Sequence record: OP045498.1
Length of the DNA stretch: 64,000 nucleotides
Origin: Klebsiella phage 150049
Reading direction: 5' to 3' (one strand)
Within the stretch, counting starts at the first letter, position 1. Each line of letters opens with the position of its first letter. Shown piece after piece: positions 1-15,227 of this stretch. The notes under the pieces were generated by a model that did no database searches, was not told the DNA's origin, and saw nothing but the letters and a program-made list of their open reading frames with translations. A program made the position numbers and the translations under genes.

Positions 1-241
1 GCTTGATAACTTCATCAAGAACTCCGAATAAGCGGTCACGATTACGGAAGCCACTTTCCATAAAGATATCGTTGAGATAGTTTTTAACTTCCCCACGATT
101 CATTATATCACGGAATGCAATCTCGGACATTCCAAGACTACGAGCGGCGGCAGGAACATCACTACCGCACTGTAAATAGGCTTCAATAACATCCATGCCT
201 TCGGGAGACATGAGATCGGGAACTAATACATCATTTGCCAT
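1..241 (-). CDS. HTH-containing protein, 5' part only (gene continues beyond window start)
   Basis: ATG at 241 preceded by AGGAGG; translation [10 protein letters not shown]...[18 protein letters not shown] has a helix-turn-helix-like segment; truncated by window edge. Confidence 0.35.
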
Positions 242-251
242 ATATCCTCCT

Positions 252-2033: not shown

Positions 2034-2116
2034 ACAATCTCCTTCTTTAAAAATGTATTTGCTTAGATCCCTCTATTTTGCTATAATATATTTATAAATT
2101 AAACAGAGGAACGATT

Positions 2117-2383
2117 ATGAAAAAGTTACTAGCTATCGTAGTTGCAGCAGTAGTGTTGACGGGTTGTGTACCAGCTCCCGAGCCATTTTGTAAGGCATAT
2201 GTGAAGTCTTATGGTCATGTTGGTGAAGAACACTATGCTTTAGATATTCGAGAAGCACGTACTGTAGGCTACCGATTCCCTAAAACTCAGTTACGCACTA
2301 AGTTTGGGTGGTGGGATTTGTCACAGTTTGATCTCAAATATGGCGATTGCAAATTTAAACTAGAACAATCTGGTCACTTGTAA
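2117..2383 (+). CDS. small lipoprotein
   Basis: Signal peptide with lipobox LTGC; preceded by early promoter cassette and RBS GAGG. Confidence 0.6.
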   Translation: MKKLLAIVVAAVVLTGCVPAPEPFCKAYVKSYGHVGEEHYALDIREARTVGYRFPKTQLRTKFGWWDLSQFDLKYGDCKFKLEQSGHL

Positions 2384-2457
2384 TTAGTATAAAGTAAAAA
2401 GATCTCGAAGTAAACAAAAATTTTTATTTCTGGGATGAGGTACAGGTAGCAAACACA

Positions 2458-2772
2458 ATGCAAGATGTAGAAAAGTCCTTTCAGGAACCTGTTAACTTTG
2501 AAATAGATCCCAGGACTAAAGCAATACATGATGCGATTAACGAAATCATTCAAGACGTCATAGAAGATACAATAGAAGACGTGATGGGAACATCCTTCTT
2601 ACTAGAAGAGTCCGGCTTCGATGAAGTAATGGATCTTATCGGGACAGTCATAATGGTTCGTGCAATTGCTAGGATATTCCAAATACCAGGACTACAGGAG
2701 AAGCAAAGAGATGTCAGACGACAACAGAAGAAAGAACAGACGCGGGGAAGTGTACGAAAGTTGGATAAATAG
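2458..2772 (+). CDS. hypothetical acidic protein
   Basis: ORF in plus-strand operon 2117-3406. Confidence 0.45.
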   Translation: MQDVEKSFQEPVNFEIDPRTKAIHDAINEIIQDVIEDTIEDVMGTSFLLEESGFDEVMDLIGTVIMVRAIARIFQIPGLQEKQRDVRRQQKKEQTRGSVRKLDK

Positions 2773-2845
2773 TTTCGGATTCGGAACTGTATTATTCTTT
2801 ATCTTTGTACTCTTTTGGTTAGCAGCTATGGCGGGGTGGTTATAA
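2711..2845 (+). CDS. small membrane protein (overlapping ORF)
   Basis: AGGAG RBS 10 nt upstream of ATG 2711; C-terminal TM segment; overlaps previous CDS in another frame. Confidence 0.25.
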   Translation: MSDDNRRKNRRGEVYESWINSFGFGTVLFFIFVLFWLAAMAGWL

Positions 2846-2949
2846 TGGAAGTAGTAATTATTGCTTTACTAGTTGTGGTAATTATCGGGCAGTGCATTCT
2901 AGATAACCACTTAGCTCGTATCGAACGTAAGCTGCGGGGAGATAAATAA
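2845..2949 (+). CDS. 34 aa single-TM peptide
   Basis: ATG 2845, stop TAA 2947-2949; hydrophobic core. Confidence 0.3.
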   Translation: MEVVIIALLVVVIIGQCILDNHLARIERKLRGDK

Positions 2950-3194
2950 TGTTTAGCTTTGTAGCTATCTTCATTATCGGGGTGCTTGCGGGAATCTTCG
3001 GAACACTCGGGGCTATTAACAAGCATCGGGAATATGTTGCGGGAGTATCGCGGGAGCTTTCGGAAAGGGAGCGGAGGTTTGCGGAGAAACGTGCGGAGTT
3101 TGAGCGGGAGTGGTCGGATGGATCTCGGGCATCGCGGAGGAGATTTCGTATGTCAGAATCGGGGGATAAGCCAGTAGATAGGAGAAGCTCATGA
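2949..3194 (+). CDS. membrane-anchored charged protein
   Basis: N-terminal TM then Arg/Glu-rich tail; TAATG overlap with previous ORF. Confidence 0.45.
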   Translation: MFSFVAIFIIGVLAGIFGTLGAINKHREYVAGVSRELSERERRFAEKRAEFEREWSDGSRASRRRFRMSESGDKPVDRRSS

Positions 3195-3406
3195 AAGAAT
3201 TCGGGCGGTTTTTCGGGGAGTTTGAGATAACTCAAGAAGAACTAGAAAAGATGGGCATCACTCAGGAGTTGCTACAGGTTCTTCCTAAGTCTTCGGAAAT
3301 TCCAGAAGGATTTATGAGATTTGATGAAGCTATTGAGTATATCAATAATCTTGTTAAGACTGACCCTCTATGGCAGTCCATTCTCAAGCAGTCAGTCCAT
3401 AAATAG
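3191..3406 (+). CDS. hypothetical protein
   Basis: ATGA overlap with previous; followed by terminator hairpin. Confidence 0.45.
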   Translation: MKEFGRFFGEFEITQEELEKMGITQELLQVLPKSSEIPEGFMRFDEAIEYINNLVKTDPLWQSILKQSVHK

Positions 3407-3511
3407 CGCTAATTTGACTTTTGCCAAATCTCATAAGATTACACATGAAGGTGTGCCCAGAGGTTCCCTAGATGAGAATGAGTCTCATTACCGCCCCGGT
3501 ACTTAGCAAGC

Positions 3512-3551
3512 TAATAGTCACACCATGTTATCGTTACACAGTGTGACTATT
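3512..3551 (+). terminator. rho-independent terminator
   Basis: stem AGTCACAC...GTGTGACT followed by T-run after plus-strand operon. Confidence 0.6.
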
Positions 3552-3564
3552 TTATTTTTAATTG

Positions 3565-4299
3565 TTAGGCAACTTTTAATTTATCAATGAATTGTTGCGG
3601 AGTGGTACTATATTCCGCGCGTTCTTCCTCGGTCATACCTTCCCAACACATTTTTAAACGTTCGGCTAGGAATTGATAATCGTTATCATCATCTAACGAT
3701 TCATCAATAAAGGTTTCACCGATCAATGTTACCCCGATTGATAGGATATCATTAACGGCTTGAGCGTCCAGCGTTTTAAATCCAGCACTTGCCGCCGCTG
3801 ATAATACACCTTTATGATCATCAATCATCGTAAAATCAGCGTTAGGATATAGCTGTTTAAACAGTTCAAAGTAATAAGACTTATATACAGCGTCTTTGCT
3901 GTGATATATTTCGCTAACCTTACCCGCTTCAAAGTATTTATGTAATGTATCGCGGGAAAATACGCGAATATTACTATTTCCGCGCCCTCTTAGACTTTGT
4001 TTACGCAAGAAATAATAATCAGATTTACCCATTAAGCGAGCGGTACAAATAAGGTTTAAGGTATTGGGATCATTCATACATTGGCGCATATATTCAACCA
4101 ATGGCAATAAAGAATCCTGCATAATTAAATCATGCTTGCAGGCTTCGCGGGAATATTTATTTAAATCTAAATTCCCATTATCATCAAAACAAGGCCCGAC
4201 ACGGTGCATTGAGTTAATGATTGTACCGTCTAAATCCCAAATCATAACGCGGGAAATATGCGGGAAAGTGCGGGTAATATTCATGTTGACTTGATTCAT
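3565..4299 (-). CDS. HAD-superfamily phosphatase (possible nucleotidase)
   Basis: Motif I IWDLDGTII (DxDGT), motif II ICTAR, motif IV MIDDHKG. Confidence 0.6.
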   Translation of the reverse strand: MNQVNMNITRTFPHISRVMIWDLDGTIINSMHRVGPCFDDNGNLDLNKYSREACKHDLIMQDSLLPLVEYMRQCMNDPNTLNLICTARLMGKSDYYFLRKQSLRGRGNSNIRVFSRDTLHKYFEAGKVSEIYHSKDAVYKSYYFELFKQLYPNADFTMIDDHKGVLSAAASAGFKTLDAQAVNDILSIGVTLIGETFIDESLDDDNDYQFLAERLKMCWEGMTEEERAEYSTTPQQFIDKLKVA

Positions 4300-4335
4300 T
4301 TGTTACATTCTCCATTTAAGGGATTTAGGTTAATT

Positions 4336-4372
4336 CAATCTTGCCAGCTAATTATATTGGATTAGCTGGCAA
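4336..4372 (-). terminator. 12-bp perfect inverted repeat hairpin
   Basis: TTGCCAGCTAAT tatattgg ATTAGCTGGCAA downstream of CDS 4387-4779. Confidence 0.4.
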
Positions 4373-4386
4373 TGTTCAATTAACTA

Positions 4387-4779
4387 TTAGTTAGTGAGGC
4401 CATACGCTAGCGCGTCACCGATAAAGCTAAGATCTTCACCATGTACGCTAGAGCGAATCCCCGCGCAAGTGTAAACCATCGCGCTAGCTTCGGGATTGCA
4501 GACCGGACACGGCTTAACAACTGCAAACGCTAGACCGGATTTAAGCGCATCAATAATAATTGTTTGCACTGTCAAAGTATCAGCGTAAACGCCTTTTGCT
4601 TTTGTATGGCTTGCCACTTTGCCGGTATCATAAGCAAAGGTAGTAACCTGCAAAGCGTCGTTATAATTCAGCAAATCAAAATTAACTTGCCCCGCCTCGA
4701 CGTGATAACGTTCACCATTAGAATAAACTAAAACGATGGAAGAAGTAGCACGATCAAAAGGAATGTTTTGGTTTTTCAT
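4387..4779 (-). CDS. hypothetical protein
   Basis: ORF with RBS; GC-richer block. Confidence 0.5.
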   Translation of the reverse strand: MKNQNIPFDRATSSIVLVYSNGERYHVEAGQVNFDLLNYNDALQVTTFAYDTGKVASHTKAKGVYADTLTVQTIIIDALKSGLAFAVVKPCPVCNPEASAMVYTCAGIRSSVHGEDLSFIGDALAYGLTN

Positions 4780-4815
4780 GTTTATGACTCCAGATTATTT
4801 AATTACGGGATTAAT

Positions 4816-5073
4816 TTATTTAATTGCAATTGTTAATTGATACGGCGTTAATTCGCCGTTATTAGTAATACTTTGATCATCTAACCATTCCATAAAGTCA
4901 GAATAATCATTAAACGTTAATACGTCATTATCACGGGTATCAACTGCAATAATACAACCTGTATTCGTCGGACTAGCCAACATATAATCGAATTGGTATA
5001 CCTTGCCGCATTCCATATCATCCGGCGTTATATACTGCTTTTTATCCAGTGTTTTAGGTAATACAATATTCAT
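4816..5073 (-). CDS. hypothetical protein
   Basis: ORF. Confidence 0.5.
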   Translation of the reverse strand: MNIVLPKTLDKKQYITPDDMECGKVYQFDYMLASPTNTGCIIAVDTRDNDVLTFNDYSDFMEWLDDQSITNNGELTPYQLTIAIK

Positions 5074-5125
5074 TTAATAAACCTTTTATTAATGGCGGTA
5101 TATTTCAACCGCCGATTAAATTTAA

Positions 5126-6790
5126 TTATGCAAAGAATTTACCGTTCTTAAAGTCAATCAATGTTCTTTGACCGTTTGCATAGGTAATTAAATGCGTTTG
5201 CGTCCAGCTTGACGCGCCCACGTTGTAGCCCATATCAAGGGAACCAGCAACGCCAGCGGTATAAACGCCGCCGTAAATGCTAGCCGTGTGAGTGTGACCA
5301 GTGTTAAGGCGTCCAAGTTTCTTAAACTGCTTAGGATTGCCCCGACTGCCGTTAATGCCATTGTGACCATGTACGCCGCATTCAATGCCAGCGATTTTAA
5401 ACGACTGGTCAGTAGTCAGGAAAATAGCGTTAAATTCGCATCCTGCGACGTTCCGCAAGGCGTAATCTAGCACGTTAAAGGTATCATCCTTTTCAGCAAT
5501 AGCGGCGTAAATCGCAGCGTTTAGACGGTGATACAATTCCGCGTTTGCGGGATCGTCTTTGATGTTAGCATTACGATCATCCAGCCAACGAGATAACGCT
5601 AGATCATGGTTAGATTCAACAATGATTGTTTGAGAGAAATCACGCTCCATAGATTCCAACACGCGACCGGTATCGATAAGATCATCTAGAACTTTGTCAC
5701 GTCCGGCGGCGTATTGTTTAGCAAGGAATACACCACTAGCGCGGTTATGATGATTGCGGGATGTAAAATCGTGCACGTCATGGACAAACTGATATTTAGG
5801 CTTGAGAATATCAAGCAAGCTGTTTTCACTAGCCCATGACGCAACGGCGCATTCATCATCTAATTTTTCGGCGTGAATATCACCATATTGCAAGCCTAAA
5901 ACGTGTCCAGACGTTTCATAACATCCGGCAGGAGTAGCGCAAATATTCAAATCATAAAACATTCCGCTTTCGTCCATTGTTTCAAGCTGGCGCACAAAAA
6001 ATTCGCCGTCGTCGTCAAACTCCACCAGCAAAGCGCCGAAATTATGCAGCGCCTCGGCTTTTTGACCTGCTTTCTGCTGAATGTAGTTTTTAAGCGTAGC
6101 CGTTCCGGTTGAATACATACGGCGCACTACTTCACCTTTTAACGCTGGCACACTTTCAGCGGTAATTTTAGCGTGACCAATTGCCAGACCTTCAATATTT
6201 AAAGCCGTGGCGGTTTCTGCGAATCCTGAAAGCGGATAGTCTGCCGTTGGTAACACGTTAATTTCAGCCATGAAAGCAAAACGGCGATTATTTAAAAATA
6301 CGTTTTTCTCGCAAATATATTTATTAAATGCGGGATCGTATTTAATGCCTTCGTTACCTTCTCCATTCTGGAAGCCGTTTTTATTGTAAATGAATTTACT
6401 AACCAGCAATTCACCGCCGATATATTCAGCGAATTTTTCCAGACTTGCTAAAAAGTTTTTATGCGGGAAAGTATTATTTTGAATCGACGTTAGAATAAAA
6501 CGGCGACCGGATTTAACTTCCCACTGTTCCACGGTACTAGAAACAATTCCCGCCGCTTCGGGGCGATCATCATTTTTAATCGCCTTTTCAGCTTTTGCCG
6601 CTTTCGGTTTTGCTGGCTTATTTGCTTCCAACCAGTCGCAAATTGCGGTTGAATGTTTCGTTGTATCGTAAACAGCTTTTGATATATCGTCGCAAACTTC
6701 CAGCTTAGTAGCGCGTAAACGTTTACCGTAGAAATTAAAATCAGCGGCAAGTTTAACGATCTGGGCTTGTTTTTCTGCGGAAATATTCAT
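5126..6790 (-). CDS. calcineurin-like metallophosphoesterase with large N-terminal extension
   Basis: C-terminal half carries GDIHAE, SNHD, VHGHNG and GHTHT phosphoesterase motifs; Lys/Ala-rich linker; GC about 50%. Confidence 0.55.
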   Translation of the reverse strand: MNISAEKQAQIVKLAADFNFYGKRLRATKLEVCDDISKAVYDTTKHSTAICDWLEANKPAKPKAAKAEKAIKNDDRPEAAGIVSSTVEQWEVKSGRRFILTSIQNNTFPHKNFLASLEKFAEYIGGELLVSKFIYNKNGFQNGEGNEGIKYDPAFNKYICEKNVFLNNRRFAFMAEINVLPTADYPLSGFAETATALNIEGLAIGHAKITAESVPALKGEVVRRMYSTGTATLKNYIQQKAGQKAEALHNFGALLVEFDDDGEFFVRQLETMDESGMFYDLNICATPAGCYETSGHVLGLQYGDIHAEKLDDECAVASWASENSLLDILKPKYQFVHDVHDFTSRNHHNRASGVFLAKQYAAGRDKVLDDLIDTGRVLESMERDFSQTIIVESNHDLALSRWLDDRNANIKDDPANAELYHRLNAAIYAAIAEKDDTFNVLDYALRNVAGCEFNAIFLTTDQSFKIAGIECGVHGHNGINGSRGNPKQFKKLGRLNTGHTHTASIYGGVYTAGVAGSLDMGYNVGASSWTQTHLITYANGQRTLIDFKNGKFFA

Positions 6791-6899
6791 AACTAATTCA
6801 ACTCCTATAAAGGGATAAAGATTAAAGCTGGCAATATTGCCAAATATAACGCCTTGCCTGAAGTGAGGACAATTTAAAAGGCGTTATAATTTGCAACAT

Positions 6900-7124
6900 T
6901 TAATTAAGCGGCATTAAACTAGAACAAAAGCCAAATACAATGCCAATTGTAAGAAAGATAATTGACAGATATTTTTGAATGTTCGCGTTTTTGCGGAAAT
7001 TATTTGCGGCGTAAACGTTATTAATTCCGATTATTGCTAGAATTGACCGCGTATAATTCAGAATAAAAGCGGCGGCAATAATAAATAAACCTAAAATAAA
7101 CGCTTCGCTAGGATAAAAGATCAA
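6900..7124 (-). CDS. small multi-TM membrane protein (TTG start)
   Basis: AAGGAG 7 nt upstream of TTG; hydrophobic throughout. Confidence 0.4.
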   Translation of the reverse strand: MIFYPSEAFILGLFIIAAAFILNYTRSILAIIGINNVYAANNFRKNANIQKYLSIIFLTIGIVFGFCSSLMPLN

Positions 7125-7174
7125 GATTATTCTCCTTTAAGGGATAGCGGGGAATATTCCCCGCTAATTAAAAT

Positions 7175-7591
7175 TTATTCACCTGCGGCCTGTTTTACTT
7201 CCTCCGCTACGCCTAACAATTGCGCTACAGCGTCCAGAGTTTCAAGTTTAGCACTTTCAAGGCTTGCCAGATCGTCGGCATCTTTTACGATACCTGAATC
7301 AATGGCGTGTTTAGCGATGACGCGCACATAGTGAGCTTTACGGACACTAGACCCGCCGCCAACTTTACGCGGTTTATCGCTTTTCTGGTAGGCTTTTGCG
7401 CTTGTCAGTTTAGAACGTACAGAAACAGGACTTGCAGCGCCAACGGCGGCGGCAATTTCTTTTAAGCCGTCACTATTCGCAAACTCAATCCCGCTTTTAG
7501 CGACCATTTCAGAATACATAGAAACAGCCTTTTCGGTGTTTTCTTCGTTCCAAGAGAATTTTGCGGTTTTTTCGGTTTTAACGTTAGACAT
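7175..7591 (-). CDS. hypothetical protein
   Basis: ORF, flanked by GC-rich hairpin 7148-7167. Confidence 0.5.
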   Translation of the reverse strand: MSNVKTEKTAKFSWNEENTEKAVSMYSEMVAKSGIEFANSDGLKEIAAAVGAASPVSVRSKLTSAKAYQKSDKPRKVGGGSSVRKAHYVRVIAKHAIDSGIVKDADDLASLESAKLETLDAVAQLLGVAEEVKQAAGE

Positions 7592-7691
7592 AATTTAATA
7601 CTCCATTCAATTATTAATTAAGGGATTATGATTAACTAATGTTAATCCATATATTCCCCATATTTCAGGGGAATATAAAAGTAACACTAAT

Positions 7692-7943
7692 TTATGCTAT
7701 AGCTTGCCATTTATCATCTTTCTGAATGATCTTTACAACGTCGCCAGATTTAACGCGAACATTATAAATAGGCTTGCCGTTGTTACTGCGTTCCGTTTCC
7801 GCATAGACCGCTTCAATCTTATCAAAGGGATCAAGCGCCGCACCTTTGATACGTTCGGCTTTTCCGGTTAATTCATCAGTTTTAGTTACAAAAGGAATGA
7901 AAACAGATTGACCTACTTTCGGCGCGGTAATAACGTTTTGCAT
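7692..7943 (-). CDS. hypothetical protein
   Basis: ORF with RBS. Confidence 0.5.
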   Translation of the reverse strand: MQNVITAPKVGQSVFIPFVTKTDELTGKAERIKGAALDPFDKIEAVYAETERSNNGKPIYNVRVKSGDVVKIIQKDDKWQAIA

Positions 7944-8107
7944 TTTTAATACTCCGGTTTATTGGGGATTATTCCACAATAGCGCCTCGATACTTTGAAA
8001 CGCTATTAGATTATAATCCGCTAGGAGTTAGCCTAAACATTACCGTTATCCAAATTTTTAAAGAGCAGTTACTACGGGGAACATCTTAAAACCTATCGGC
8101 TAGCGTG

Positions 8108-8326
8108 TCAAGCGTTTTTTAAACTTTTTTCGATTTGATGTGAGTTATATAAATCAATCATTATATTACGCCACACCATTTCCAGACCTTGCTGCTTACC
8201 TTTCTTGTATTGCTTGAATCTGTATTTTACAGATCGTTGCGCTACTGTCAACAAATTTTTTGTTCTGCTATCTAATGCGCTAGCAGGTTTTGCACTAATC
8301 ACTAAAGCGTTTTTTGATTTGATCAT
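8108..8326 (-). CDS. small basic protein flanked by 24-bp inverted repeats
   Basis: Lys/Arg-rich 72 aa; inverted repeats GGGAACATCTTAAARCCTATCGGC at 8076-8100 and 8359-8382. Confidence 0.45.
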   Translation of the reverse strand: MIKSKNALVISAKPASALDSRTKNLLTVAQRSVKYRFKQYKKGKQQGLEMVWRNIMIDLYNSHQIEKSLKNA

Positions 8327-9070
8327 ATCTGCGATTCCTTATAATGTATAAGTTTACCGCCGATAGGCTTTAAGATGTTCCCTAATTTTTAAAGAGCGTG
8401 GCGGTAAACTTCCCCGCCGTTGTAATCTGGCCTTTCGTTTCCGTCTTGCCGTCCTACGAGATAAATAATAGCAAATTAAGCGAAAGAGACAAGCGTATTT
8501 TTGTAAAGAAGTGTAAAGACAAACGCCACCGCACCACGTCCAGCGGCGCACTAAATTTAATGAAACGGGCGCGCGAATAACACCAAAACAACCATTTTAG
8601 CAAGTAATTTTTTCATTTATATCTGCTCTAGGGTACTTGACAAAATCTAAAATCCTCGTGGTGACGATAACGGCTAGTAGGCAATGCACTTGCCTAGCTT
8701 TTCCTTTGATGCGCTTAGAATCGCTTACAGAGCGTTTTAGACCCTGTTAATAACTTATACAAAAAGCAAAAATGAAATTTAATGAGTTATCCACTTGATT
8801 TTTCAAAAAAGTATTTTCTGCTGTTATTTTTCATTGACAAATAAGTTTAGACGTGCATTGATTGGTTAGCAGACTAATAATCCCTAGGATGATAATCACG
8901 CTGGTGGATTGTAACAGCCGAAATAGTTAGCAGACTATTAATACTCTAAAAACCTATTAGCCAACTAACTATTTCATATTATATAATATACTTATAAATT
9001 AAAGAGAAATAATAACTATAAGAAACTATCGGCTAAGTAAGAACCACTATCATTTAGGTTATTCACAAAG

Positions 9071-9129
9071 TTATCCACAGCACAAAATAACTTGACGCAA
9101 TAGGCGACGTTTTGGTGACTTATCCACAG
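9071..9129 (+). promoter_or_regulatory. two consensus DnaA boxes (TTATCCACA)
   Basis: Boxes at 9071-9079 and 9121-9129, plus a TTATCCACT copy near 8786. Confidence 0.5.
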
Positions 9130-9151
9130 ACTTATATACAGGTTATCCTAC

Positions 9152-9167
9152 TGTATAAATATACAGG
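9152..9167. promoter_or_regulatory. LexA-box-like palindrome CTGTATAAATATACAG (left copy)
   Basis: CTGT-N8(AT-rich)-ACAG form of the gammaproteobacterial SOS box; identical copy at 12735-12750. Confidence 0.45.
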
Positions 9168-9415
9168 GTAAAAGGGTAGCAGTAACAACCGCAATCAAAT
9201 TTAAGCGGCCTAGAACGCATTCTAAGCGGTTTTCTCACTGCTACCCTTATTATAATAAAGCCTTGTGTACGCTTACAGAGAGCTAGAAATAGAAAACGCG
9301 CGGTTATCATAAAAACAGGCAGTAAGCAAGAAATAAAAAACCTTTTCTTTTTTCTTGCCCCTAGCGAACAATTATCTATATCATTCACTCACCGATTAAC
9401 GAGGGAGACAAAGAA

Positions 9416-10411
9416 ATGTCTACTGTAAGAATTGCAGTACCAGCAAACGCCACTATTATTAAGGGTAGTTTGCGCAACCTGCTAGACGGATCAAGTCCAG
9501 CAAGCCTACAACATACGGCGGCAATGGTTGAAAAGATTCACGATGATATTTTAGATAATAATGATACTCATTATTGTTTAAGTGATTTCACACAACTACT
9601 AGACCCTACCCGCGTTCTAGTGCTTTACAACCGTGACTATCACATCATGCGAAATCAGCGGGGAAGCGATATTGATTTTATCATTGTAGGTCACGACGAA
9701 AAAAGCTATATTGCCCGTGGTTACAATGTACAAGAAAAGGAAATGGTTTTCGCTACTCGCGTAAATGGTATTAATTCCAGCGATGTAGAAGATTTACTAT
9801 CTAGTATTTGGGGCGAATTGACAAGCGCCATTAAACGTGCTGATAGTGACGCAATCGAAACAACTGGCGTATTGTGTTTTGAACGCGCTAGCGGTAACAT
9901 GTTGATCCCTAACGATTATTTAGGGTATGGGAATGAATCAAACATTGCAAACGCTGGATTTACACTAAAACCAGTTGACAACGTAGCAAAACAGGCTGTA
10001 AACTCTCAAACTTCAAGCGCAAATGCGCAAACTACTGAAAATAAAGGAAATATTATGTCTAAAGTATCTTCTATCGTTGCTGCTAACAAATCCGCCGTTG
10101 TAAACGCTGCTAAACTGGAAGCGGGTAAAATTGCATTGACTCAAATTACAAAAGTAGCGGCTAAAAAAGCGCCGTTTATGATTAAAGGTTATATTGATAC
10201 TCCGATTGGTCGCGTAGTGATCGCTAACCTGTTAAGCGTAGCGGTTGACCAGTACGCCCCGACTAACGCAAAAGCTAAAGCGGTAGCAGGCGCGGCAATG
10301 GAAGCGGCAATGTTGGAAATGGTGCAGAGTTTCAATATTGCTGAAATGATCGATGAAATGGTAAAAGGTATTGACATTTCTACCTTTACCCAAAGCGCCG
10401 AAACAGAATAA
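9416..10411 (+). CDS. hypothetical 331 aa protein with Ala/Lys-rich C-terminal region
   Basis: First gene of the plus-strand island; RBS GAGGGAG; no family recognised. Confidence 0.55.
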   Translation: MSTVRIAVPANATIIKGSLRNLLDGSSPASLQHTAAMVEKIHDDILDNNDTHYCLSDFTQLLDPTRVLVLYNRDYHIMRNQRGSDIDFIIVGHDEKSYIARGYNVQEKEMVFATRVNGINSSDVEDLLSSIWGELTSAIKRADSDAIETTGVLCFERASGNMLIPNDYLGYGNESNIANAGFTLKPVDNVAKQAVNSQTSSANAQTTENKGNIMSKVSSIVAANKSAVVNAAKLEAGKIALTQITKVAAKKAPFMIKGYIDTPIGRVVIANLLSVAVDQYAPTNAKAKAVAGAAMEAAMLEMVQSFNIAEMIDEMVKGIDISTFTQSAETE

Positions 10412-10419
10412 TAATTACT

Positions 10420-10448
10420 AGCGGGGATTATTTCCCCGCTTTACTATT
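10420..10448 (+). terminator. rho-independent terminator
   Basis: AGCGGGG attattt CCCCGCT followed by T-rich tract. Confidence 0.55.
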
Positions 10449-10475
10449 TCCCTGTTAATTGTTAGGAGACTAATT

Positions 10476-10970
10476 ATGTCAGAAGAAAAATATGGCTTTT
10501 CGCTAGAAAGTGTGAATGAAGCTAAACACGATATGATCGTTTTAGTTGATTGTCATACTGGCTATTGCGGGGAGGGCTGGACGGAGGAACATTTTGTTCC
10601 CGCTGGCTGTGATCTGGACGCTTTCGCAAACGAACACGCATATGATAATGCTTCTCGTTTCGGTAGCGATGGGGAAGAAGATGAAGAAACAGGGGAATGG
10701 ATTGAAAATGATAATGTATATGCGAGTCTTTATCATTATCAATTGAGTAAGTCCGGTACTTATGTAAATGGCGGCGATCCTATTAATACCGTTATGAAAC
10801 TAATTATTAAACACGGTGGCGCGGAAATAATTGGTAACAAGGCGTTATTATACGCAAATCGATTAAAACAGCTTGTTTATATTCCTGATAATTCCCGTTG
10901 GGATGAATATGCCGTTTTACAGAAAGAATTAAAACGCTGTTTCAACATTGAAGCGTTAGAAATAGTCTAA
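10476..10970 (+). CDS. hypothetical acidic protein
   Basis: ORF with RBS AGGAG. Confidence 0.55.
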   Translation: MSEEKYGFSLESVNEAKHDMIVLVDCHTGYCGEGWTEEHFVPAGCDLDAFANEHAYDNASRFGSDGEEDEETGEWIENDNVYASLYHYQLSKSGTYVNGGDPINTVMKLIIKHGGAEIIGNKALLYANRLKQLVYIPDNSRWDEYAVLQKELKRCFNIEALEIV

Positions 10971-11076
10971 TGTAAAGTTTTGTAAAGGTCGCCTATGTTG
11001 GCGGCCTTTTTTGTTATAATGCCTTTACACCGAAACGGTGGATTGAAAATTTCCCTGATTTCTAGGAGGCGTTAAA

Positions 11077-11307
11077 ATGGTTGCTTTCTCTTCTTCTGAC
11101 TCTCTTTTCACTGGTAAAGGTTGGGTGTCTAATCGCTGGATTATTGATCAGATGGTTTCTGAATTTGGGATTGGTAAAACTTATGTTACCATTCAGGCGC
11201 TTTATGATAATGATAAGATTGACCAGCAAACCGCCGGATTTTTGCTGGACACGTTGAAATCAGAACATTGCACCAAAAAGCAAGCGGCGAAAATTGTTTT
11301 AATGTAA
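11077..11307 (+). CDS. hypothetical protein
   Basis: RBS AGGAGG upstream. Confidence 0.45.
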   Translation: MVAFSSSDSLFTGKGWVSNRWIIDQMVSEFGIGKTYVTIQALYDNDKIDQQTAGFLLDTLKSEHCTKKQAAKIVLM

Positions 11308-11312
11308 ATAAT

Positions 11313-11340
11313 AACGGGGCGTTACTTTCGCCCCTCATTC
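11313..11340 (+). terminator. hairpin terminator (weak T tract)
   Basis: GGGGCG ttactttc GCCCC. Confidence 0.35.
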
Positions 11341-11356
11341 CCTTACTAGGAGTCAT

Positions 11357-11573
11357 GCAAATGTTAAAGAATGTTTCCCTTGCCCGTTCTAAAGGTTTTA
11401 AGCTGGTGGATGTTAACACGTTTGAGCGTCCAGATTGTAAAATCGAATATGTAGCACGCAACAAAAACGCGTTTCGTGTTACTGAAAAGAAATTTGACAA
11501 GCGCGGAAATTTGGTAGCCGAAACGGTTAAACACTTTGCCACCTTTTACGCTGCTTTTCGTGGGGTATTATGA
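11357..11573 (+). CDS. hypothetical protein
   Basis: TAGGAG RBS before ATG 11357 (inner start of ORF 11268-11573). Confidence 0.45.
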
Positions 11574-11682
11574 GATCCTTATATATTGCTCTAGCGTTTG
11601 CTACCGTTGGCGTTGTTTGCTCATTCGCTGCATTTGTTTTAAAAATGTACCTGATATTTTCCCAGCTTTAGGAGCTTGACAA

Positions 11683-12027
11683 ATGGTTATATACGAGGGT
11701 AATCGTTTTGTTACTAATTGCCGTCCGGCATTATTAGCAAGCTATTTAAATCAGCTTTCACCAGTTTATAAAGGCGTGGTTAATATCTATGAAGGCAAAG
11801 CACATTATAAGATTAATGCCGTTGTTGCTCGCGAGCTTGCCTTCCAGTTTCTTACTTTTGGCGCATGTGATGTACAGGTTATGGGTGAGCCATTAGTAGC
11901 AGAAAATGAAAATGAATTTATTGACATTTTCCGCAAAGTATGTACAGAGCGCCTGATTATGAAAGGCGCATATATTCAATCAACCGCTGAAAGTATCGAA
12001 ACAGCGTTTCGAAAGGTGGCGCAATGA
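11683..12027 (+). CDS. hypothetical protein
   Basis: ORF. Confidence 0.5.
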   Translation: MVIYEGNRFVTNCRPALLASYLNQLSPVYKGVVNIYEGKAHYKINAVVARELAFQFLTFGACDVQVMGEPLVAENENEFIDIFRKVCTERLIMKGAYIQSTAESIETAFRKVAQ

Positions 12028-12224
12028 CTAAAGATGAAGCGTTAGAAAAAATGAAACAAGGTTTCAAAGTTAGTAATCAATATTTTACTAGCGATGAATT
12101 TTTGTACATGAAAGAAAACGGCGTGATCATGTCGGAAGATGGTTACAATTTTAATGATTGGTTTTTCAATATTCGCAAGGGGGAGGAATGGAAGCTAGAC
12201 GGTTGGAGCGTTTACCGTGAATAG
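12024..12224 (+). CDS. hypothetical protein
   Basis: ATGA overlap with previous ORF. Confidence 0.45.
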   Translation: MTKDEALEKMKQGFKVSNQYFTSDEFLYMKENGVIMSEDGYNFNDWFFNIRKGEEWKLDGWSVYRE

Positions 12225-12347
12225 CTGGTGGCGAAAAACACAAAGCCATAAATCTAATAATACCGCTGGGAAACATTCCCAGCGTTTACGATTTGGTAAT
12301 GGCTTTACAATGATATTGATAATCATTCTCATTCTAGGAGCAATGGC

Positions 12348-12587
12348 ATGGCTGTAAGAATTTTACGATATGTAGAACGTAAAGAAACCGATATTATGCA
12401 ACATCATTTAACTGATGGGCAATACGCGCAATTTTTAGAAATGCGGAAAAGCGGAGCTAGTACGGCGGCGCTAGGGGCGTGGATCAATTCAGTCTCAACG
12501 TGTACGCATTTTGACTCATATGGATATACGCCAGCCGAAACCGTCCAGATCTTTGACGACTACGAGAAGGAATACATAGCAGACTAA
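12348..12587 (+). CDS. hypothetical protein
   Basis: ORF followed by terminator. Confidence 0.5.
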   Translation: MAVRILRYVERKETDIMQHHLTDGQYAQFLEMRKSGASTAALGAWINSVSTCTHFDSYGYTPAETVQIFDDYEKEYIAD

Positions 12588-12593
12588 TAATAA

Positions 12594-12624
12594 CGGGGCG
12601 CAACTACCGGCCCCGCCTTTTCTG
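12594..12624 (+). terminator. rho-independent terminator
   Basis: CGGGGC gcaactacc GCCCCG then CCTTTTCTG. Confidence 0.55.
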
Positions 12625-12734
12625 CCTGCAAACAAATTTCCCCTTATTAAAATACCTCCTCCAAAAATAAACGCGTTAGGATGCGTTACAGAGCGTTTTA
12701 GAGCTATATTAGAGTTATTCACTACGCAGGAATA

Positions 12735-12750
12735 CTGTATAAATATACAG
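12735..12750. promoter_or_regulatory. LexA-box-like palindrome CTGTATAAATATACAG (right copy)
   Basis: Identical 16-mer to 9152-9167; lies inside a ~50-bp imperfect inverted repeat of 9121-9167 that also contains GTTGATAA/TGTGGATAA DnaA-box-like elements (12834-12842). Confidence 0.45.
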
Positions 12751-12867
12751 TAGAATAACCTGTTGATAAGTCTGTTGATAACGCCTCAAAATCGCTAGGA
12801 TTTTGTCAAGTCAAATCGTGCTGTTAATAAACCTGTGGATAACTTAAATAACAGTGTTTCTCACTTC

Positions 12868-13020
12868 GCTTTCTAAATGCAAATCATTCTCATTATGCGA
12901 CTCATTCGCATTCCGCCAATCAAATGATAACCATTCTCATTCCTCTTTCTAAACGCGAATCATTCTCATTCGCATTCAACTTCTCAAATGCGAATCAATC
13001 TCATTATCATTCGCATTTCG
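12868..13020. repeat. three ~26-bp direct repeats (TTCTAAAtGCgAATCAtTCTCATT family)
   Basis: Visible tandem-like copies of aatcattctcatt / cattcgcatt units. Confidence 0.55.
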
Positions 13021-13056
13021 GCAGGCAGGGCATTTTCATTTTTGCCCTGCGCTTTT

Positions 13057-13796
13057 GTGCAAATCCGACATTTGCCCCCACGGATTACGTGCCAGCGTGC
13101 ATGTGCGAATCCGACAATTTTTGGTAGTGTGCAAATCCGATGGGAAATATTTTTATAGTGTGCAAATACGACAATGAATTTTCCTAAAAACTCGGGCAGA
13201 CTCGTGCTGCGCACAAATCCAGCCGTATATGTGCAAATACGACATGAAATTTCTAGGAATGAGATGTGCAGATCCTACAAGATTTTTGTGACTTCGATGA
13301 TAGGGTGTGTGATTGTGTGGGTTTGGGGAGAAGTGCGAATCCGATGAGATTTTGGGAGGAACTACGGGAGGAGCAGCGGTGATGGTGCTTTAGCACCGGT
13401 TTGCTGCGTTTTTGGGGGTAATGCGGGATGTTTTGGCTAGAATTGAGATTAGGGGAGATTATGCGAAATTTTATTAGCAAAATAGGGCAAAATAGCTTGA
13501 CAAGTGAAAATTCCTGTGGCTCTAAAAACTCAGGCAATCATGGGCCTTCGGCCCGAAATAATGCTGCTATTTTCAGTGTTCCTAAAAACTTTGGAGACTC
13601 CTATCAATGTGCAAATCCGACCATAAATTTCTAGAAACACAGTGTGCAAATCCGATAGTAATTTCCAGAAATGTGTTTTGGAAAAATGTCTACTAGAAAT
13701 AACCGCCCTGTATTAAACCGCCCTGTATTAAACCGCCTATTGCTGGAGTTTTTAGGAACAGGAGAAACTGCCCTATAACATGTGCAAATACGACAG
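13057..13796. repeat. iteron array: about 11 copies of 14-mer GTGCAAATCCGACA-like, irregular 25-71 bp spacing
   Basis: Copies start at 13057, 13103, 13128, 13160, 13209 (degenerate), 13231, 13266, 13333, 13609, 13645 and 13783; interleaved TTCCTAGAAAC-like motifs and a 16-bp tandem (aaccgccctgtatta) at 13712-13755. Confidence 0.6.
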
Positions 13797-14148
13797 GATT
13801 TTCCTAGAAACTTAGGAGTCTACTAGAAAGTGTTGTGCCATCCTAGGAAGAGCGGCGGCAACAAGTGTATCATCTTGAATGTAAATTATGTGGACAAAAG
13901 TTTTACCTTTTATTTAAATATAAGATCCCCCAATCTCGTAAGTCTGCTGCTCTAGGCGTTCAAGATCTGTATGCTAATCCCGTGATAACTGCTGCAGAAT
14001 ACATCCTAACGCCAGAGGCGCTGGTGTACTCTTCGAGTTGGGATAGCAATAATCTTGTTGCCTAGAGCTAAAAACAGAAGTTGTTTTTAATCTATGAGAT
14101 TATTATAACATGTGCCTTAATGAGTTGTCAAGAAGATTTTGTTAACGT

Positions 14149-14880
14149 TTATTCCTTCCGCTTGTATTTGAGAACGATACCCTTCGAGACCATGAAGAGG
14201 AAAGTTGCAAGATAGGAATGTGGGGATTTTAGCGCATCATAATCTACAGTCCCGAAAGAACCTTCGCCAAAAACTTCGGAGTTCTCAAAGGTTGGTAGTA
14301 AACGTGCTAATCCGACAGCTCCTAGAATCTTAAAGAATTGATCCCAGTCATTTAACATTGCTTTATGTGCAGACTGTAAGATTAACGGCATCTCTATTTT
14401 CTTTTCGAGACATAGATGAACCTGCGCAATCGTAGAAGCAATCCCTAGCAATACTTCATCTTTTGTATAAGGGAAGCCTTCTTCTTTTCTTTGGAGTCTA
14501 GGAAGATGATCATATTCACAACGTTTAGGTGGAATAAACTTTTCATCAGGATAGAGTTCTAATGCAACCTTAACATTCCCTTCTCTAAATGTAGGAAGTT
14601 CCTGATCCGCAAATACATGGTATGAATTTGCTTTGAACCCTACAATATTATCACCAACAGAATTGATGATCTTTCTCATTGCAATATAAGCGGGAGATAA
14701 TGTTACGAAATTTTCTTCTTTATTATATTTAACAATTCCAGCTTCTGTGTAAGCTGCGGGATGAAACTCAGAACAGAATGCTACTGCGTGAGCTTCATCT
14801 GGAGTTAGCTCAGAAACACATTTACCATCTGCATTTCTAGCTAACTTAATAATAGTCTTTAAGTTCTCACTAATACTCAT
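14149..14880 (-). CDS. hypothetical protein
   Basis: ORF. Confidence 0.55.
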   Translation of the reverse strand: MSISENLKTIIKLARNADGKCVSELTPDEAHAVAFCSEFHPAAYTEAGIVKYNKEENFVTLSPAYIAMRKIINSVGDNIVGFKANSYHVFADQELPTFREGNVKVALELYPDEKFIPPKRCEYDHLPRLQRKEEGFPYTKDEVLLGIASTIAQVHLCLEKKIEMPLILQSAHKAMLNDWDQFFKILGAVGLARLLPTFENSEVFGEGSFGTVDYDALKSPHSYLATFLFMVSKGIVLKYKRKE

Positions 14881-15227
14881 ATATCCCAGGCCTGATCTCC
14901 AGTGGACTTTTTAACTGGTCTTTCTTTTAATGTTATGACTCTATCTATAGCGGGATCTAATTTAATCCATATTAGATTTAGTTGAGCAACAATATGGGAC
15001 ATGTTTCTAGCTGTGAAAGGTATATCTTTTGGCAGCCTAAATACTAGCTCTTTGAGATCATTCATTAAATGAGCATCAGCAAAGAATAAGTACGATAGCC
15101 TTTCCACACGTTCATATTCATCCTCTTTAATTTCAAAGATCCCAATAGTTTCTTCGTTATTAAAAGACTTTTCATTGAGAAAAGCCACCTTGCAGTGGCC
15201 TATAGTAAATTCAGTAACTAGTTCCAT
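14877..15227 (-). CDS. hypothetical protein
   Basis: ATGA overlap. Confidence 0.5.
   Translation of the reverse strand: MELVTEFTIGHCKVAFLNEKSFNNEETIGIFEIKEDEYERVERLSYLFFADAHLMNDLKELVFRLPKDIPFTARNMSHIVAQLNLIWIKLDPAIDRVITLKERPVKKSTGDQAWDI

What the first reader, a model, noticed from the sequence alone, without database searches (positions are those of the whole stretch)
8580..13860. Plus-strand island bounded by ~50-bp inverted repeats carrying LexA-box-like palindromes and DnaA boxes, with an adjacent iteron array (plasmid-type origin-like architecture)
Inside a run of minus-strand early genes sits a 3.2 kb block of seven plus-strand genes (9416-12587), each with its own strong GC-clamp terminator. 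The block is flanked by near-identical inverted segments TTATC[C/A]ACAGACTTAT..ACAGGTTAT.CTACTGTATAAATATACAG at 9121-9167 and 12735-12790. Each contains the 16-mer CTGTATAAATATACAG (SOS-box form) and TTATCCACA-type DnaA boxes. A shared direct 17-mer TTACAGAGCGTTTTAGA occurs at about 8721 and 12688. Downstream is a 0.8 kb ORF-poor zone with about 11 copies of a 14-bp iteron (GTGCAAATCCGACA), three 26-bp repeats and a 16-bp tandem. DnaA boxes plus an AT-rich region plus iterons plus a gene of unknown function (331 aa, 9416-10411) is the classic layout of iteron-controlled theta replicons. T4 oriE is also iteron-based. LexA-like boxes in a virulent T4-like genome would be unusual and suggest SOS-responsive control of this module or a captured plasmid or mobile cassette. 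No cassette early promoters occur inside the island, so it is regulated differently from the surrounding early genes.
Basis: seen in the sequence. Interest (0 to 1): 0.8.

Follow-up and report, generated by a model that had tools for sequence, protein, structure and literature searches.

The report
T5-type injection-stop region, not an origin
This is the already described control region at the end of the first DNA segment that T5-like phages inject, not a plasmid-type replication origin, but its two flanking repeats each carry a near-perfect binding site for the host SOS repressor LexA, conserved across the phage family, which I did not find reported.

Summary
The repeats are real, but the window is a T5-like phage (Demerecviridae, Epseptimavirus type), not T4-like. 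Positions 8580-13860 are the right-hand third of its roughly 10.07-kb terminal repeat, the first-step-transfer (FST) DNA. The region holds the divergent pre-early control zone and a rightward operon of accessory pre-early genes. That operon is bracketed by the known 131-135-bp inverted arms IRC-spacer-IRD and IRD'-spacer-IRC', each with two pairs of DnaA boxes. By homology the terminal repeat ends at 13522|13523, in the gap between DRD copies 6 and 7. Davison (2020) described this architecture in 25 T5-like phages.

The origin or captured-plasmid reading fails:
- There is no Rep or Par protein by sequence or fold.
- The 331-aa gene is the dispensable, toxic gp011 homolog.
- The repeats are irregularly spaced.
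- T5 origins map mid-genome.

One part of the finding survives and gets stronger. The 20-mers at the inner end of each arm score 27.0 and 22.3 bits on an E. coli SOS-box matrix, as high as the best genuine boxes. Equivalent boxes occur in Erwinia, Proteus and Vibrio relatives, with CTGT/ACAG kept and the centre variable. I found no paper linking LexA to this region. LexA binding and any function are untested.

The parts
3455..13522 (.). Single (collapsed) copy of the long terminal repeat, which is the first-step-transfer DNA, about 10.07 kb.
   Evidence: The left boundary matches the unique-region/right-repeat junction of relatives that have both ends. The right boundary ...CCTGTGGCTC|TAAAAACTCAGG matches the repeat end in 8 such phages, give or take 2 nt, T5 at 10219 included. 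The receptor-binding tail gene lies at 252-2033, upstream of the repeat. dmp, A1 and A2 lie inside it.
8580..9031 (.). Non-coding zone between the leftward (A2-A1-dmp) and rightward pre-early operons. It is equivalent to T5 Repeat Regions 1 and 2.
   Evidence: Position relative to T5 and Stitch annotation. Contains the 27-mer at 8715-8741 and the inverted pair 8920-8940 / 8955-8975. It has the lowest GC of the area, 0.30.
8725..8741 (+). Direct 17-mer TTACAGAGCGTTTTAGA, copy 1.
   Evidence: Exact. The reverse-complement motif CTCTAAAACGCTCTG also sits next to the boxes of Vibrio phage Rocket24.
9032..9166 (+). Left inverted arm, equivalent to T5 IRC-spacer-IRD.
   Evidence: pair I1. Aligns with T5 6098-6228. 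Described in Davison 2020.
9059..9079 (+). DnaA-box pair TTATTCACA-aag-TTATCCACA.
9120..9140 (+). DnaA-box pair TTATCCACA-gac-TTATATACA.
9149..9168 (.). Left LexA-type box TACTGTATAAATATACAGGG, at the inner end of the arm.
   Evidence: 22.3 bits on the E. coli SOS-box matrix and 17/20 to the consensus. Conserved in relatives.
9168..9256 (.). Long imperfect hairpin next to the left box.
   Evidence: RNA fold -30.2 kcal/mol, z -6.2. Present in the Epseptimavirus-type relatives; on reading the sequences, the complementary 3' arm is not evident in most Tequintavirus flanks.
9416..10411 (+). 331-aa protein, DUF7566, homolog of T5 gp011 (T5.011).
   Evidence: Pfam PF24450, E 2.6e-135. 56% identical to T5.011. 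T5 gp011 is reported toxic and non-essential. No Rep-like fold.
10476..10970 (+). 164-aa protein of unknown function (phrog_6741). Present in only some relatives.
11077..11307 (+). 76-aa protein, T5.012 homolog.
11361..11573 (+). 70-aa homolog of the T5 nickase that acts at abasic sites left by host Ung.
   Evidence: phrog_4227, E 2.5e-50. 93% identical to T5 8086-8298.
11683..12027 (+). 114-aa protein, homolog of T5 8300-8644.
12024..12224 (+). 66-aa protein with a weak Tad2-like hit. Present in few relatives.
   Evidence: Pfam PF11195, E 0.005, below the cut-off..
12348..12587 (+). 79-aa protein of unknown function. Present in few relatives.
12686..12702 (+). Direct 17-mer, copy 2.
12733..12752 (.). 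Right LexA-type box TACTGTATAAATATACAGTA, at the inner end of the arm.
   Evidence: 27.0 bits, above all 18 reference E. coli boxes (leave-one-out maximum 25.2), and 19/20 to the consensus. The identical 20-mer occurs twice in Erwinia phage KEY.
12735..12869 (-). Right inverted arm, equivalent to T5 IRD'-spacer-IRC', the prime candidate for the injection stop signal.
   Evidence: 92.5% identical to T5 9411-9543. Davison 2020.
12761..12781 (-). DnaA-box pair TTATCAACA x2, 3 bp apart.
12822..12842 (-). DnaA-box pair TTATCCACA plus TTATTAACA, 3 bp apart.
12854..13017 (+). CATTCTCATT-type repeats, about 35-bp period. Probably the counterpart of T5 DRE/DRC (assigned by position, not checked).
   Evidence: (family D1).
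13025..13050 (+). GC-rich hairpin followed by TTTT, terminator-like. The homolog of the T5 major nick site lies just after it, at 13052|13053 on the minus strand.
   Evidence: Fold -17.6 kcal/mol. Alignment with T5, where the nick is annotated at 9748/9749.
13056..13279 (+). DRD repeats 1-6 (TGTGCAAATCCGACA), inside the terminal repeat.
13608..13795 (+). DRD repeats 7-9, just beyond the terminal-repeat end.
13701..13737 (+). 15-bp tandem AACCGCCCTGTATTA, 2.5 copies.

Best explanation
The region is the cis-acting and accessory-gene part of the first-step-transfer (FST) DNA of a T5-like phage.

**Known biology of T5 (from the literature, not shown here).** The left end of the genome enters first. 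Transfer halts after about 8%. Host RNA polymerase then expresses the pre-early genes, and A1 plus A2 allow the rest to enter.

**What the sequence shows here.**
- The + strand block is the rightward pre-early operon of dispensable host-takeover genes.
- Two 135-bp inverted arms bracket it. Reading inward, each arm is built as: DnaA-box pair, spacer, DnaA-box pair, 8-10 bp, LexA-type box.
- The injection stop signal zone follows: 35-bp repeats, a GC hairpin, the nick-site homolog, six DRD repeats, the terminal-repeat end, then three more DRD repeats.

**Inferred mechanism.**
- The arms are landing pads for abundant host DNA-binding proteins. DnaA was proposed by Davison; I add LexA.
- These proteins would load as soon as each arm enters the cell. 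The resulting nucleoprotein complex would pause or anchor the incoming DNA: a minor pause at the left arm and the main stop just after the right arm.
- The complex may also insulate the operon.
- A1/A2 would later relieve the block.

The region is not a replication origin. My estimates: identity of the region about 0.95; host proteins bind the arms about 0.7; that binding is what stops DNA transfer about 0.3.
For: **Identity of the region.**
- It is 90-95% identical to many Epseptimavirus genomes. T5 and S114 annotate the homologous stretch as the injection stop signal, and T5 and Stitch place it inside the terminal repeat.
- A2, A1, dmp and the receptor-binding protein are in the T5 order.
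- The terminal-repeat ends map at 3455 and 13522.
- The arms, the paired DnaA boxes and the DRD repeats match Davison's description of 25 phages.

**Selection on the arms.**
- The right arm is 92.5% identical to T5, whereas the 331-aa protein is only 56% identical and three of the seven genes have no T5 homolog.
- Left and right arms are no more alike within one phage (0.751) than between phages (0.748). Their shared sub-elements are therefore kept by function, not by gene conversion.

**Host-factor sites.**
- Perfect TTATCCACA boxes are strongly enriched in the arms.
- The LexA-type boxes score 27.0 and 22.3 bits, against 3.0-25.2 for 18 genuine E. coli boxes (box list from PMC3009722).
- The same composite is found in Erwinia KEY, Proteus PM135 and Vibrio D415 and Rocket24, where A2 is only 41-53% identical. 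CTGT/ACAG is kept while the centre varies.

**Two stop sites.** Davison cites Rhoades (1979), who saw a second FST band near 5.8 kb, close to the left arm.
Against: - No binding of DnaA or LexA to this DNA has been shown. Papers from 2023 and 2026 state that the function of these repeats is experimentally unstudied.
- A few phages carry one damaged LexA-type box: Stitch left, S114 right, and L008, L022, L036 and L037 left. Two intact boxes are therefore not essential.
- From my own recollection, T5 plates on recA hosts, so LexA cleavage cannot be required for second-step transfer.
- All hosts of this phage family share the same LexA motif, so host-motif co-variation cannot be used as a test.
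- The DRD repeats have no assigned binder, and this model leaves them unexplained.
Confidence: 0.85

Rival explanations
1. Iteron-controlled, plasmid-type replication origin or captured replicon. The 331-aa protein would be a Rep initiator binding the 15-mer repeats, and the DnaA boxes would help open an AT-rich region.
For: Direct 15-mer repeats (13 found against 0.11 expected) lie near DnaA boxes and a gene of unknown function. Davison also calls the DnaA-box layout reminiscent of oriC.
Against: - The gene is absent from DT57C-like and other relatives, and T5 gp011 is non-essential.
- Repeat spacing is irregular (26-343 bp).
- The repeats are 2.6 kb from the gene and straddle the terminal-repeat end.
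- GC in the zone is 0.35-0.45, not AT-rich.
- T5 origins map mid-genome, and the replication genes are not present during the FST stage.
Confidence: 0.03
2. The LexA-type boxes are true SOS operators of inward-facing promoters built into the arms, with the DnaA box as the -35 and the box covering the -10. The accessory operon, and an antisense RNA from the right arm, would then respond to the host's SOS state.
For: - The consensus scan finds TTATCA-16-TATATT on the minus strand at 12769-12742, overlapping the right box. The left arm has the mirror arrangement.
- The boxes sit exactly at the inner ends of the arms, facing the operon.
- A1-dependent host DNA breakdown, known from the literature, should trigger SOS.
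Against: - The -35 matches are poor (2-4 of 6).
- The experimentally characterised promoter of gene 011 lies just upstream of the gene (T5 6411-6489), about 185 bp from the box.
- No transcript data are available.
Confidence: 0.17
3. The palindromes and the DRD repeats are sites for phage proteins, not host proteins. Candidates are the A2 dimer, an A1/A2 nuclease cutting a palindrome (Davison's restriction model), or the terminase or end-generating machinery, since the DRD array flanks the terminal-repeat end.
For: - A2 is a dimeric DNA-binding protein, and A1/A2 are needed for second-step transfer.
- Six DRD copies lie 240-470 bp inside the repeat end and three lie 85-260 bp outside it, in every phage with defined ends.
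- The annotated T5 nick maps 4 bp before DRD 1.
Against: - The box keeps the exact host LexA specificity while A2 diverges to 41% identity.
- DnaA boxes stay at the perfect host consensus.
- No DRD copies lie near the left repeat boundary.
- Nothing is known about the sequence preference of A2 or the terminase.
Confidence: 0.2
4. The arms are recombination sites of a mobile or invertible cassette, and the flip itself is the function.
For: - The gene block between the arms is inverted in Sugarland/IME260-type phages, with breakpoints inside the arms.
- Gene content between the arms is highly variable, and the arm-to-arm distance ranges from about 1.6 to 4.1 kb.
Against: - Only one orientation is seen in all 36 close relatives.
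- No recombinase or transposase is present.
- The arms show no concerted evolution.
- The arms sit at the same genomic place in every phage.
Confidence: 0.05

Closest known systems
Injection stop signal and FST repeat regions of phage T5 (annotated in NC_005859; compared across 25 T5-like phages by Davison 2020, bioRxiv 10.1101/866236)
   Same: Same position in the terminal repeat. Same 131-135-bp inverted arms with four DnaA-box pairs 3 bp apart. Same DRD array of nine copies, same nick-site context, and same repeat-end sequence. The right arm is 92.5% identical to T5.
   Different: Only in detail. The gene content between the arms differs (164-, 66- and 79-aa genes are absent from T5), and there is no HNH insertion. 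The LexA-type reading of the palindrome at the inner arm ends is not in that paper (0 mentions of LexA or SOS).
Chromosomal DnaA-box clusters (oriC, datA)
   Same: Several high-affinity TTATCCACA boxes lie close together in a fixed arrangement.
   Different: There is no adjacent unwinding element. The boxes come in two inverted sets 3.6 kb apart. The element sits in DNA that is present before any phage replication gene has entered, and T5 origins map elsewhere.
Iteron origins of theta plasmids (pSC101, R6K, F, P1)
   Same: Direct repeats of 15 nt near DnaA boxes.
   Different: No Rep gene, irregular spacing, and the repeats straddle a genome end.
SOS operators on mobile elements (colicin operons, phage GIL01, CTX phage)
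   Same: CTGT-N8-ACAG sites of consensus quality carried on a mobile genome.
   Different: Those are temperate or plasmid systems in which the box overlaps a mapped promoter. Here the phage is virulent. The boxes flank an operon at the ends of long inverted repeats and sit 8-10 bp from DnaA boxes. No promoter overlap is established.

Membership tests
T5-type first-step-transfer / injection-stop region | Lies at the right end of a roughly 10-kb direct terminal repeat of a T5-like genome, downstream of dmp-A1-A2. | tested here: met
   Repeat boundaries at 3455 and 13522 by homology with phages that have both ends. A1, A2 and dmp identified.
T5-type first-step-transfer / injection-stop region | Inverted arms of 131-135 bp (IRC-spacer-IRD and IRD'-spacer-IRC') with DnaA boxes in pairs 3 bp apart. 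| tested here: met
   Definition taken.
T5-type first-step-transfer / injection-stop region | Array of about nine DRD repeats, other direct repeats and palindromes, and the major nick site. | tested here: met
T5-type first-step-transfer / injection-stop region | DNA transfer actually halts here and resumes with A1/A2. | not testable with these tools
   Needs infection experiments (blender or qPCR assay).
Iteron-controlled theta replicon | Adjacent gene for a Rep initiator (Rep_3 / winged-helix family). | tested here: not met
Iteron-controlled theta replicon | Regularly phased iterons next to an AT-rich unwinding element. | tested here: not met
   Spacings are 46, 26, 31, 71, 35, 343, 35 and 138 bp. 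GC is 0.35-0.45.
Iteron-controlled theta replicon | Autonomous replication and incompatibility. | not testable with these tools
   Needs cloning.
LexA (SOS) operator | Sequence matches the gammaproteobacterial LexA motif as well as genuine operators do. | tested here: met
   27.0 and 22.3 bits against 3.0-25.2 for 18 E. coli boxes; 19/20 and 17/20 to TACTGTATATATATACAGTA.
LexA (SOS) operator | Conservation pattern follows LexA specificity: half-sites fixed, centre free. | tested here: met
   Among 23 distinct 20-mers from about 40 phages, including Erwinia, Proteus and Vibrio lineages, C3, T4, A7, C16 and A17 are invariant, G5 and T6 change in one 20-mer each and G18 in three, and positions 10-11 are the most variable inside the 16-mer core.
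LexA (SOS) operator | Overlaps a promoter that it represses. | tested here: inconclusive
   Only weak promoter-like matches overlap the boxes. The mapped gene-011 promoter is about 185 bp away.
LexA (SOS) operator | LexA binds the site. | not testable with these tools
   Needs EMSA, footprinting or ChIP.

The most novel reading that the evidence does not exclude
Host LexA, together with DnaA, is recruited to both inverted arms of the first-injected DNA throughout the T5 family. This host-protein complex would be part of the long-sought mechanism that pauses DNA transfer, or would gate pre-early expression and second-step transfer according to the host's SOS state. That would make T5-like phages virulent phages with family-wide, consensus-strength SOS boxes.
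Probability: 0.25. Interest if true: 0.7.

Novelty: already known. Interest (0 to 1): 0.4.

Why it matters
As a whole the feature is ordinary for this phage family, and it should not be reported as a new origin or a captured plasmid.

The useful residue concerns an open question. Why T5 DNA transfer stops at 8% has been open since Lanni's 1968 model, and papers from 2023 and 2026 still call the repeat zone experimentally unstudied. The region can now be described as two mirror-image pads that combine perfect DnaA boxes with SOS boxes of top E. coli quality. These pads are conserved from Escherichia and Salmonella phages to Vibrio phages.

That gives a second, easily testable host candidate, because lexA(Def) and lexA(Ind-) strains, purified LexA and T5 genome-editing tools all exist.

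The evolutionary inversion of the block between the arms shows that whatever the arms do does not depend on the orientation of the genes they enclose.

Tried and rejected
- **Rfam**, E-value mode, over 8000-15000: only a chance snoRNA hit at E 0.88.
- **Protein family searches** on the seven operon proteins (Pfam, NCBIfam, PDB sequences): nothing beyond DUF7566 and a sub-threshold Tad2-like hit.
- **Earlier T5 literature**: Davison 2015 could not be retrieved. Wang 2005 and Heusterspreute 1987 are subscription papers that I did not look up. An earlier mention of the LexA likeness cannot be excluded.
- **Searches for a LexA link** to T5 or T5-like phages, and for the exact 16-mer: nothing relevant.
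- **Promoter overlapping the boxes**: matches are too weak to call.
- **Hairpin 9168-9256** as a conserved structure: strong in this phage (z -6.2), but on reading the sequences the complementary 3' arm is not evident in most Tequintavirus flanks.
- **Repeat-end motif CTAAAAACTC**: recurs four times near the end, but there are 13 such matches in the whole window, so it is weak.
- **DRD repeats as CRP or IHF sites** (by eye): no fit. The 5' part is one mismatch from the DnaA consensus, but the conserved CCGACA tail is not explained by DnaA.
- **GC skew**: no origin-like signal beyond strand-of-transcription effects.

Full report
**1. What the window is**

A megablast of 8400-14200 finds 539 phage records. 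Almost all are T5-like Demerecviridae of Salmonella, Escherichia and Klebsiella. The best hit is Escherichia phage IrmaTschudi, at 94.6% identity over 95% of the query.

In T5 (NC_005859) the homologous stretch lies inside the feature [quoted passage not shown] and ends in a feature called "injection stop signal (iss)". Salmonella phage S114 carries the same label, and phage Stitch also places the stretch inside its terminal repeat.

The neighbouring genes are in the T5 order:
- 252-2033: receptor-binding tail protein
- 3565-4299: dmp
- 5126-6790: A1, the DNA transfer protein
- 7175-7591: A2, 100% identical to an annotated A2

The genome is therefore T5-like, not T4-like. The minus-strand genes to the left of the finding are pre-early genes, not early genes.

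**2. Terminal-repeat boundaries**

I used nine IMG/VR genomes that carry both repeat copies to locate the boundaries. In eight of them the repeat ends at ...TGTGGCTC|TAAAAACTCAGG, give or take 2 nt. T5 ends there at 10219, in agreement with its annotation. The same sequence places the end in the window at 13522|13523.

The left boundary sequence ...ACACATGAAGGTGT|GCCCAG lies at 3454|3455. The window therefore holds one collapsed copy of a roughly 10.07-kb repeat. Upstream of it lies the right end of the unique region, and downstream lies the left end.

**3. Checking the observation**

All the repeats are real.
- **Inverted repeat.** It is 135 nt long, at 9032-9166 and 12735-12869, and 74% complementary.
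- **DnaA boxes.** Each arm has two pairs of DnaA-type boxes 3 bp apart. Six of the eight boxes are within one mismatch of TTATCCACA, against 0.08 expected in 270 bp.
- **Palindrome.** Each arm ends, on its inner side, in CTGTATAAATATACAG. These are the only two CTGT-N8-ACAG sites in the window.
- **Direct 17-mer.** It is exact at 8725 and 12686.
- **'Iteron'.** It is the 15-mer TGTGCAAATCCGACA. Nine copies lie at 13056-13795, all in one orientation, with further copies at 14303, 15532 and 15763. In all, 13 are found against 0.11 expected.
- **Other repeats.** They are a 35-bp unit of 2.3 copies and a 15-bp unit of 2.5 copies.
- **Hairpins.** GC-rich hairpins follow five of the seven ORFs.
- **Composition.** The zone is not AT-rich.

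**4. This architecture is already described**

Davison (bioRxiv 10.1101/866236) compared 25 T5-like phages. His main points are these:
- There are three untranslated repeat regions.
- A 131-bp IRC-spacer-IRD is mirrored by IRD'-spacer-IRC' on the other side of a poorly conserved coding block.
- There are eight DnaA boxes in pairs 3 bp apart, "reminiscent of oriC".
- There are nine DRD repeats, plus DRE and DRC repeats and many palindromes.
- He argues that the DnaA boxes are unlikely to serve replication. T5 origins map near mid-genome, and the replication genes have not entered the cell at that stage.
- He proposes that membrane-bound DnaA holds the DNA.

Later papers repeat this description and state that experiments are lacking. 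The window matches the description element by element, and its right arm is 92.5% identical to that of T5.

The nick that T5 annotates at 9748/9749 aligns to 13052|13053 in the window. That position lies between a GC hairpin (13025-13050) and the first DRD repeat.

**5. Testing the origin or captured-plasmid reading**

None of the seven proteins matches a Rep, partition or recombinase family.

A 2026 preprint reports T5 gene 011 as toxic when expressed, non-essential and of unknown function. [quoted passage not shown] The gene is absent from several relatives, namely L010/L011, L018 and L029/L034.

The repeats are irregularly spaced and lie 2.6 kb from this gene. The block is not an insertion either. 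Both arms and the repeat zone are present in 39 of the 40 relatives fetched, and the exception, L005, is truncated.

**6. The LexA-type boxes**

This part of the finding holds up better than expected.

*Scoring.* I built a position weight matrix from the 18 E. coli SOS boxes listed in Table 4 of PMC3009722.
- The right site, TACTGTATAAATATACAGTA (12733-12752), scores 27.0 bits.
- The left site, TACTGTATAAATATACAGGG (9149-9168), scores 22.3 bits.
- The 18 genuine boxes score 3.0-25.2 in leave-one-out.
- The next best site in 64 kb scores 13.3.

*Close relatives.* T5 has the identical 16-mer at both arm ends. Among 63 distinct arms from about 35 close relatives, the box is kept at about 90% or better per position. 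A few phages have one damaged copy: a 1-nt deletion in Stitch left, CTAT in S114 right, and ACAA in four others. At least one canonical copy always remains.

*Distant lineages* (A2 only 41-53% identical). The two or three best matrix hits in each 17-19-kb locus again flank the accessory operon, and most lie within about 10 nt of TTATCCACA boxes:
- Erwinia phage KEY: the identical 20-mer twice, 27.0 bits each.
- Proteus phage PM135: 25.8 and 19.2 bits.
- Vibrio phage D415: 22.4, 22.3 and 18.7 bits.
- Vibrio phage Rocket24: 25.2 bits, plus a weaker partner.

In these phages the centre of the box differs (ATATCCAT, TTTATTTA, ATATAATT) while CTGT and ACAG stay. That is the variation LexA specificity allows.

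*Literature.* No held paper links LexA or SOS boxes to T5 or T5-like FST DNA, and none contains the 16-mer. Davison 2015 could not be retrieved, and I did not look up Wang 2005 or Heusterspreute 1987, so an earlier mention cannot be excluded.

**7. How it most likely works**

*Shown by sequence:*
- The anatomy of the region.
- The consensus quality of the host-factor sites.
- Their conservation across the family.
- The absence of concerted evolution between the arms. Left-to-right identity is 0.751 within a phage and 0.748 between phages, against 0.85 left-to-left and 0.92 right-to-right. The shared sub-elements are therefore kept by selection on each arm separately.

*Inferred:* each arm is a pad for DnaA and LexA that loads as the arm enters the cell.

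*From the literature:* the measured FST end, about 7.9%, falls roughly 150 bp past the right arm. Davison cites Rhoades (1979) for a minor band near 5.8 kb, close to the left arm. Both arms would therefore act as pause sites.

*Not shown:* that either protein binds, that binding stops transfer, or how A1/A2 relieve the block.

*Alternatives:*
- The boxes could be operators of weak inward promoters.
- The palindromes could be targets of A2 or A1/A2.
- The DRD array could serve end formation or packaging rather than the stop. It has six copies inside and three outside the repeat end, and it begins 4 bp after the nick site.

From my own recollection, T5 grows on recA hosts. LexA cleavage is therefore unlikely to be required for second-step transfer, so any LexA role would be structural or modulatory.

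**8. An extra finding: an inverted cassette**

In the Klebsiella Sugarland/IME260-type phages (A2 64% identical) the whole block between the arms is inverted.
- The DUF7566 and 164-aa homologs lie on the other strand and in reverse order.
- The window's right inner flank matches DNA next to their left arm, and its left arm plus inner flank matches DNA next to their right arm.
- All 36 closer relatives keep the window's orientation.

The arms have therefore mediated, or at least tolerated, one inversion in evolution. Their role does not depend on the direction of the enclosed genes.

**9. Verdict**

- **Observation:** confirmed.
- **Interpretation as a plasmid-type origin or captured cassette in a T4-like phage:** not supported.
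- **The feature as a whole:** an already known kind of element, the T5 FST and injection stop region.
- **New lead:** the family-wide, consensus-strength LexA-type boxes paired with DnaA boxes. As far as I could search, this is unreported, and it is directly testable.

Noticed in passing
L041-L043 (Sugarland/IME260-type Klebsiella phages), compared with window 9032-12869: The whole gene block between the two inverted arms is inverted relative to the window and T5, with breakpoints inside the arms. All 36 closer relatives keep the window's orientation.
   Followed up: partly
window 14102-14131, minus strand: A perfect sigma-70 promoter (TTGACA, 18 nt, TATAAT, with an extended -10 TG) points leftward into the non-coding repeat zone. 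No convincing ORF lies downstream of it. The stretch 14081-14150 is 80% conserved even in Sugarland-type phages. It could drive a non-coding transcript across the repeat end.
   Followed up: partly
window 14303, 15532, 15763 (+ strand); equivalent distal copies in all relatives: Extra copies of the DRD 15-mer lie inside early genes on the opposite coding strand. The copy at 15532 has one mismatch. Each relative examined also has a copy 1.2-2.3 kb past the repeat end.
   Followed up: no
window 13056-13795: The DRD unit begins TGTGCAAAT. Its reverse complement ATTTGCACA is one mismatch from the DnaA consensus TTWTNCACA. The variant at 15763 is a full consensus box. The conserved CCGACA tail is not explained by DnaA.
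   Followed up: no
window 13184, 13522, 13582 (+) and 13746 (-): The sequence at the terminal-repeat end (CTAAAAACTC) recurs four times within 600 bp, once inverted. There are 13 such matches in the whole window, so the signal is weak.
   Followed up: partly
window 1-3454 and 13523 onward: The window comes from an assembly with a single collapsed terminal repeat. DNA that precedes the right repeat in complete genomes (the receptor-binding protein gene) is joined to the repeat start.
   Followed up: yes
window 12024-12224: The 66-aa pre-early ORF gives a weak Tad2-like (Thoeris anti-defence) Pfam hit at E 0.005, below the cut-off. It is present in only a few relatives.
   Followed up: no
window 9416-10411 and its database relatives: Many UniRef entries name this DUF7566 protein 'DNA N-6-adenine methyltransferase'. 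No methyltransferase family or fold was detected, so the name looks like propagated mis-annotation.
   Followed up: partly
window 9168-9256: An 89-nt hairpin directly after the left LexA-type box has z -6.2. It contains a diverged inverted copy of the 17-mer family. On reading the sequences, the complementary 3' arm is not evident in most Tequintavirus flanks.
   Followed up: partly
L047 (Vibrio phage Rocket24), near positions 210-300 and 3782: The motif CTCTAAAACGCTCTG, the reverse complement of the window's direct 17-mer, sits next to the LexA-type boxes in this distant subfamily. The 17-mer is therefore also an old conserved element with no known binder.
   Followed up: no
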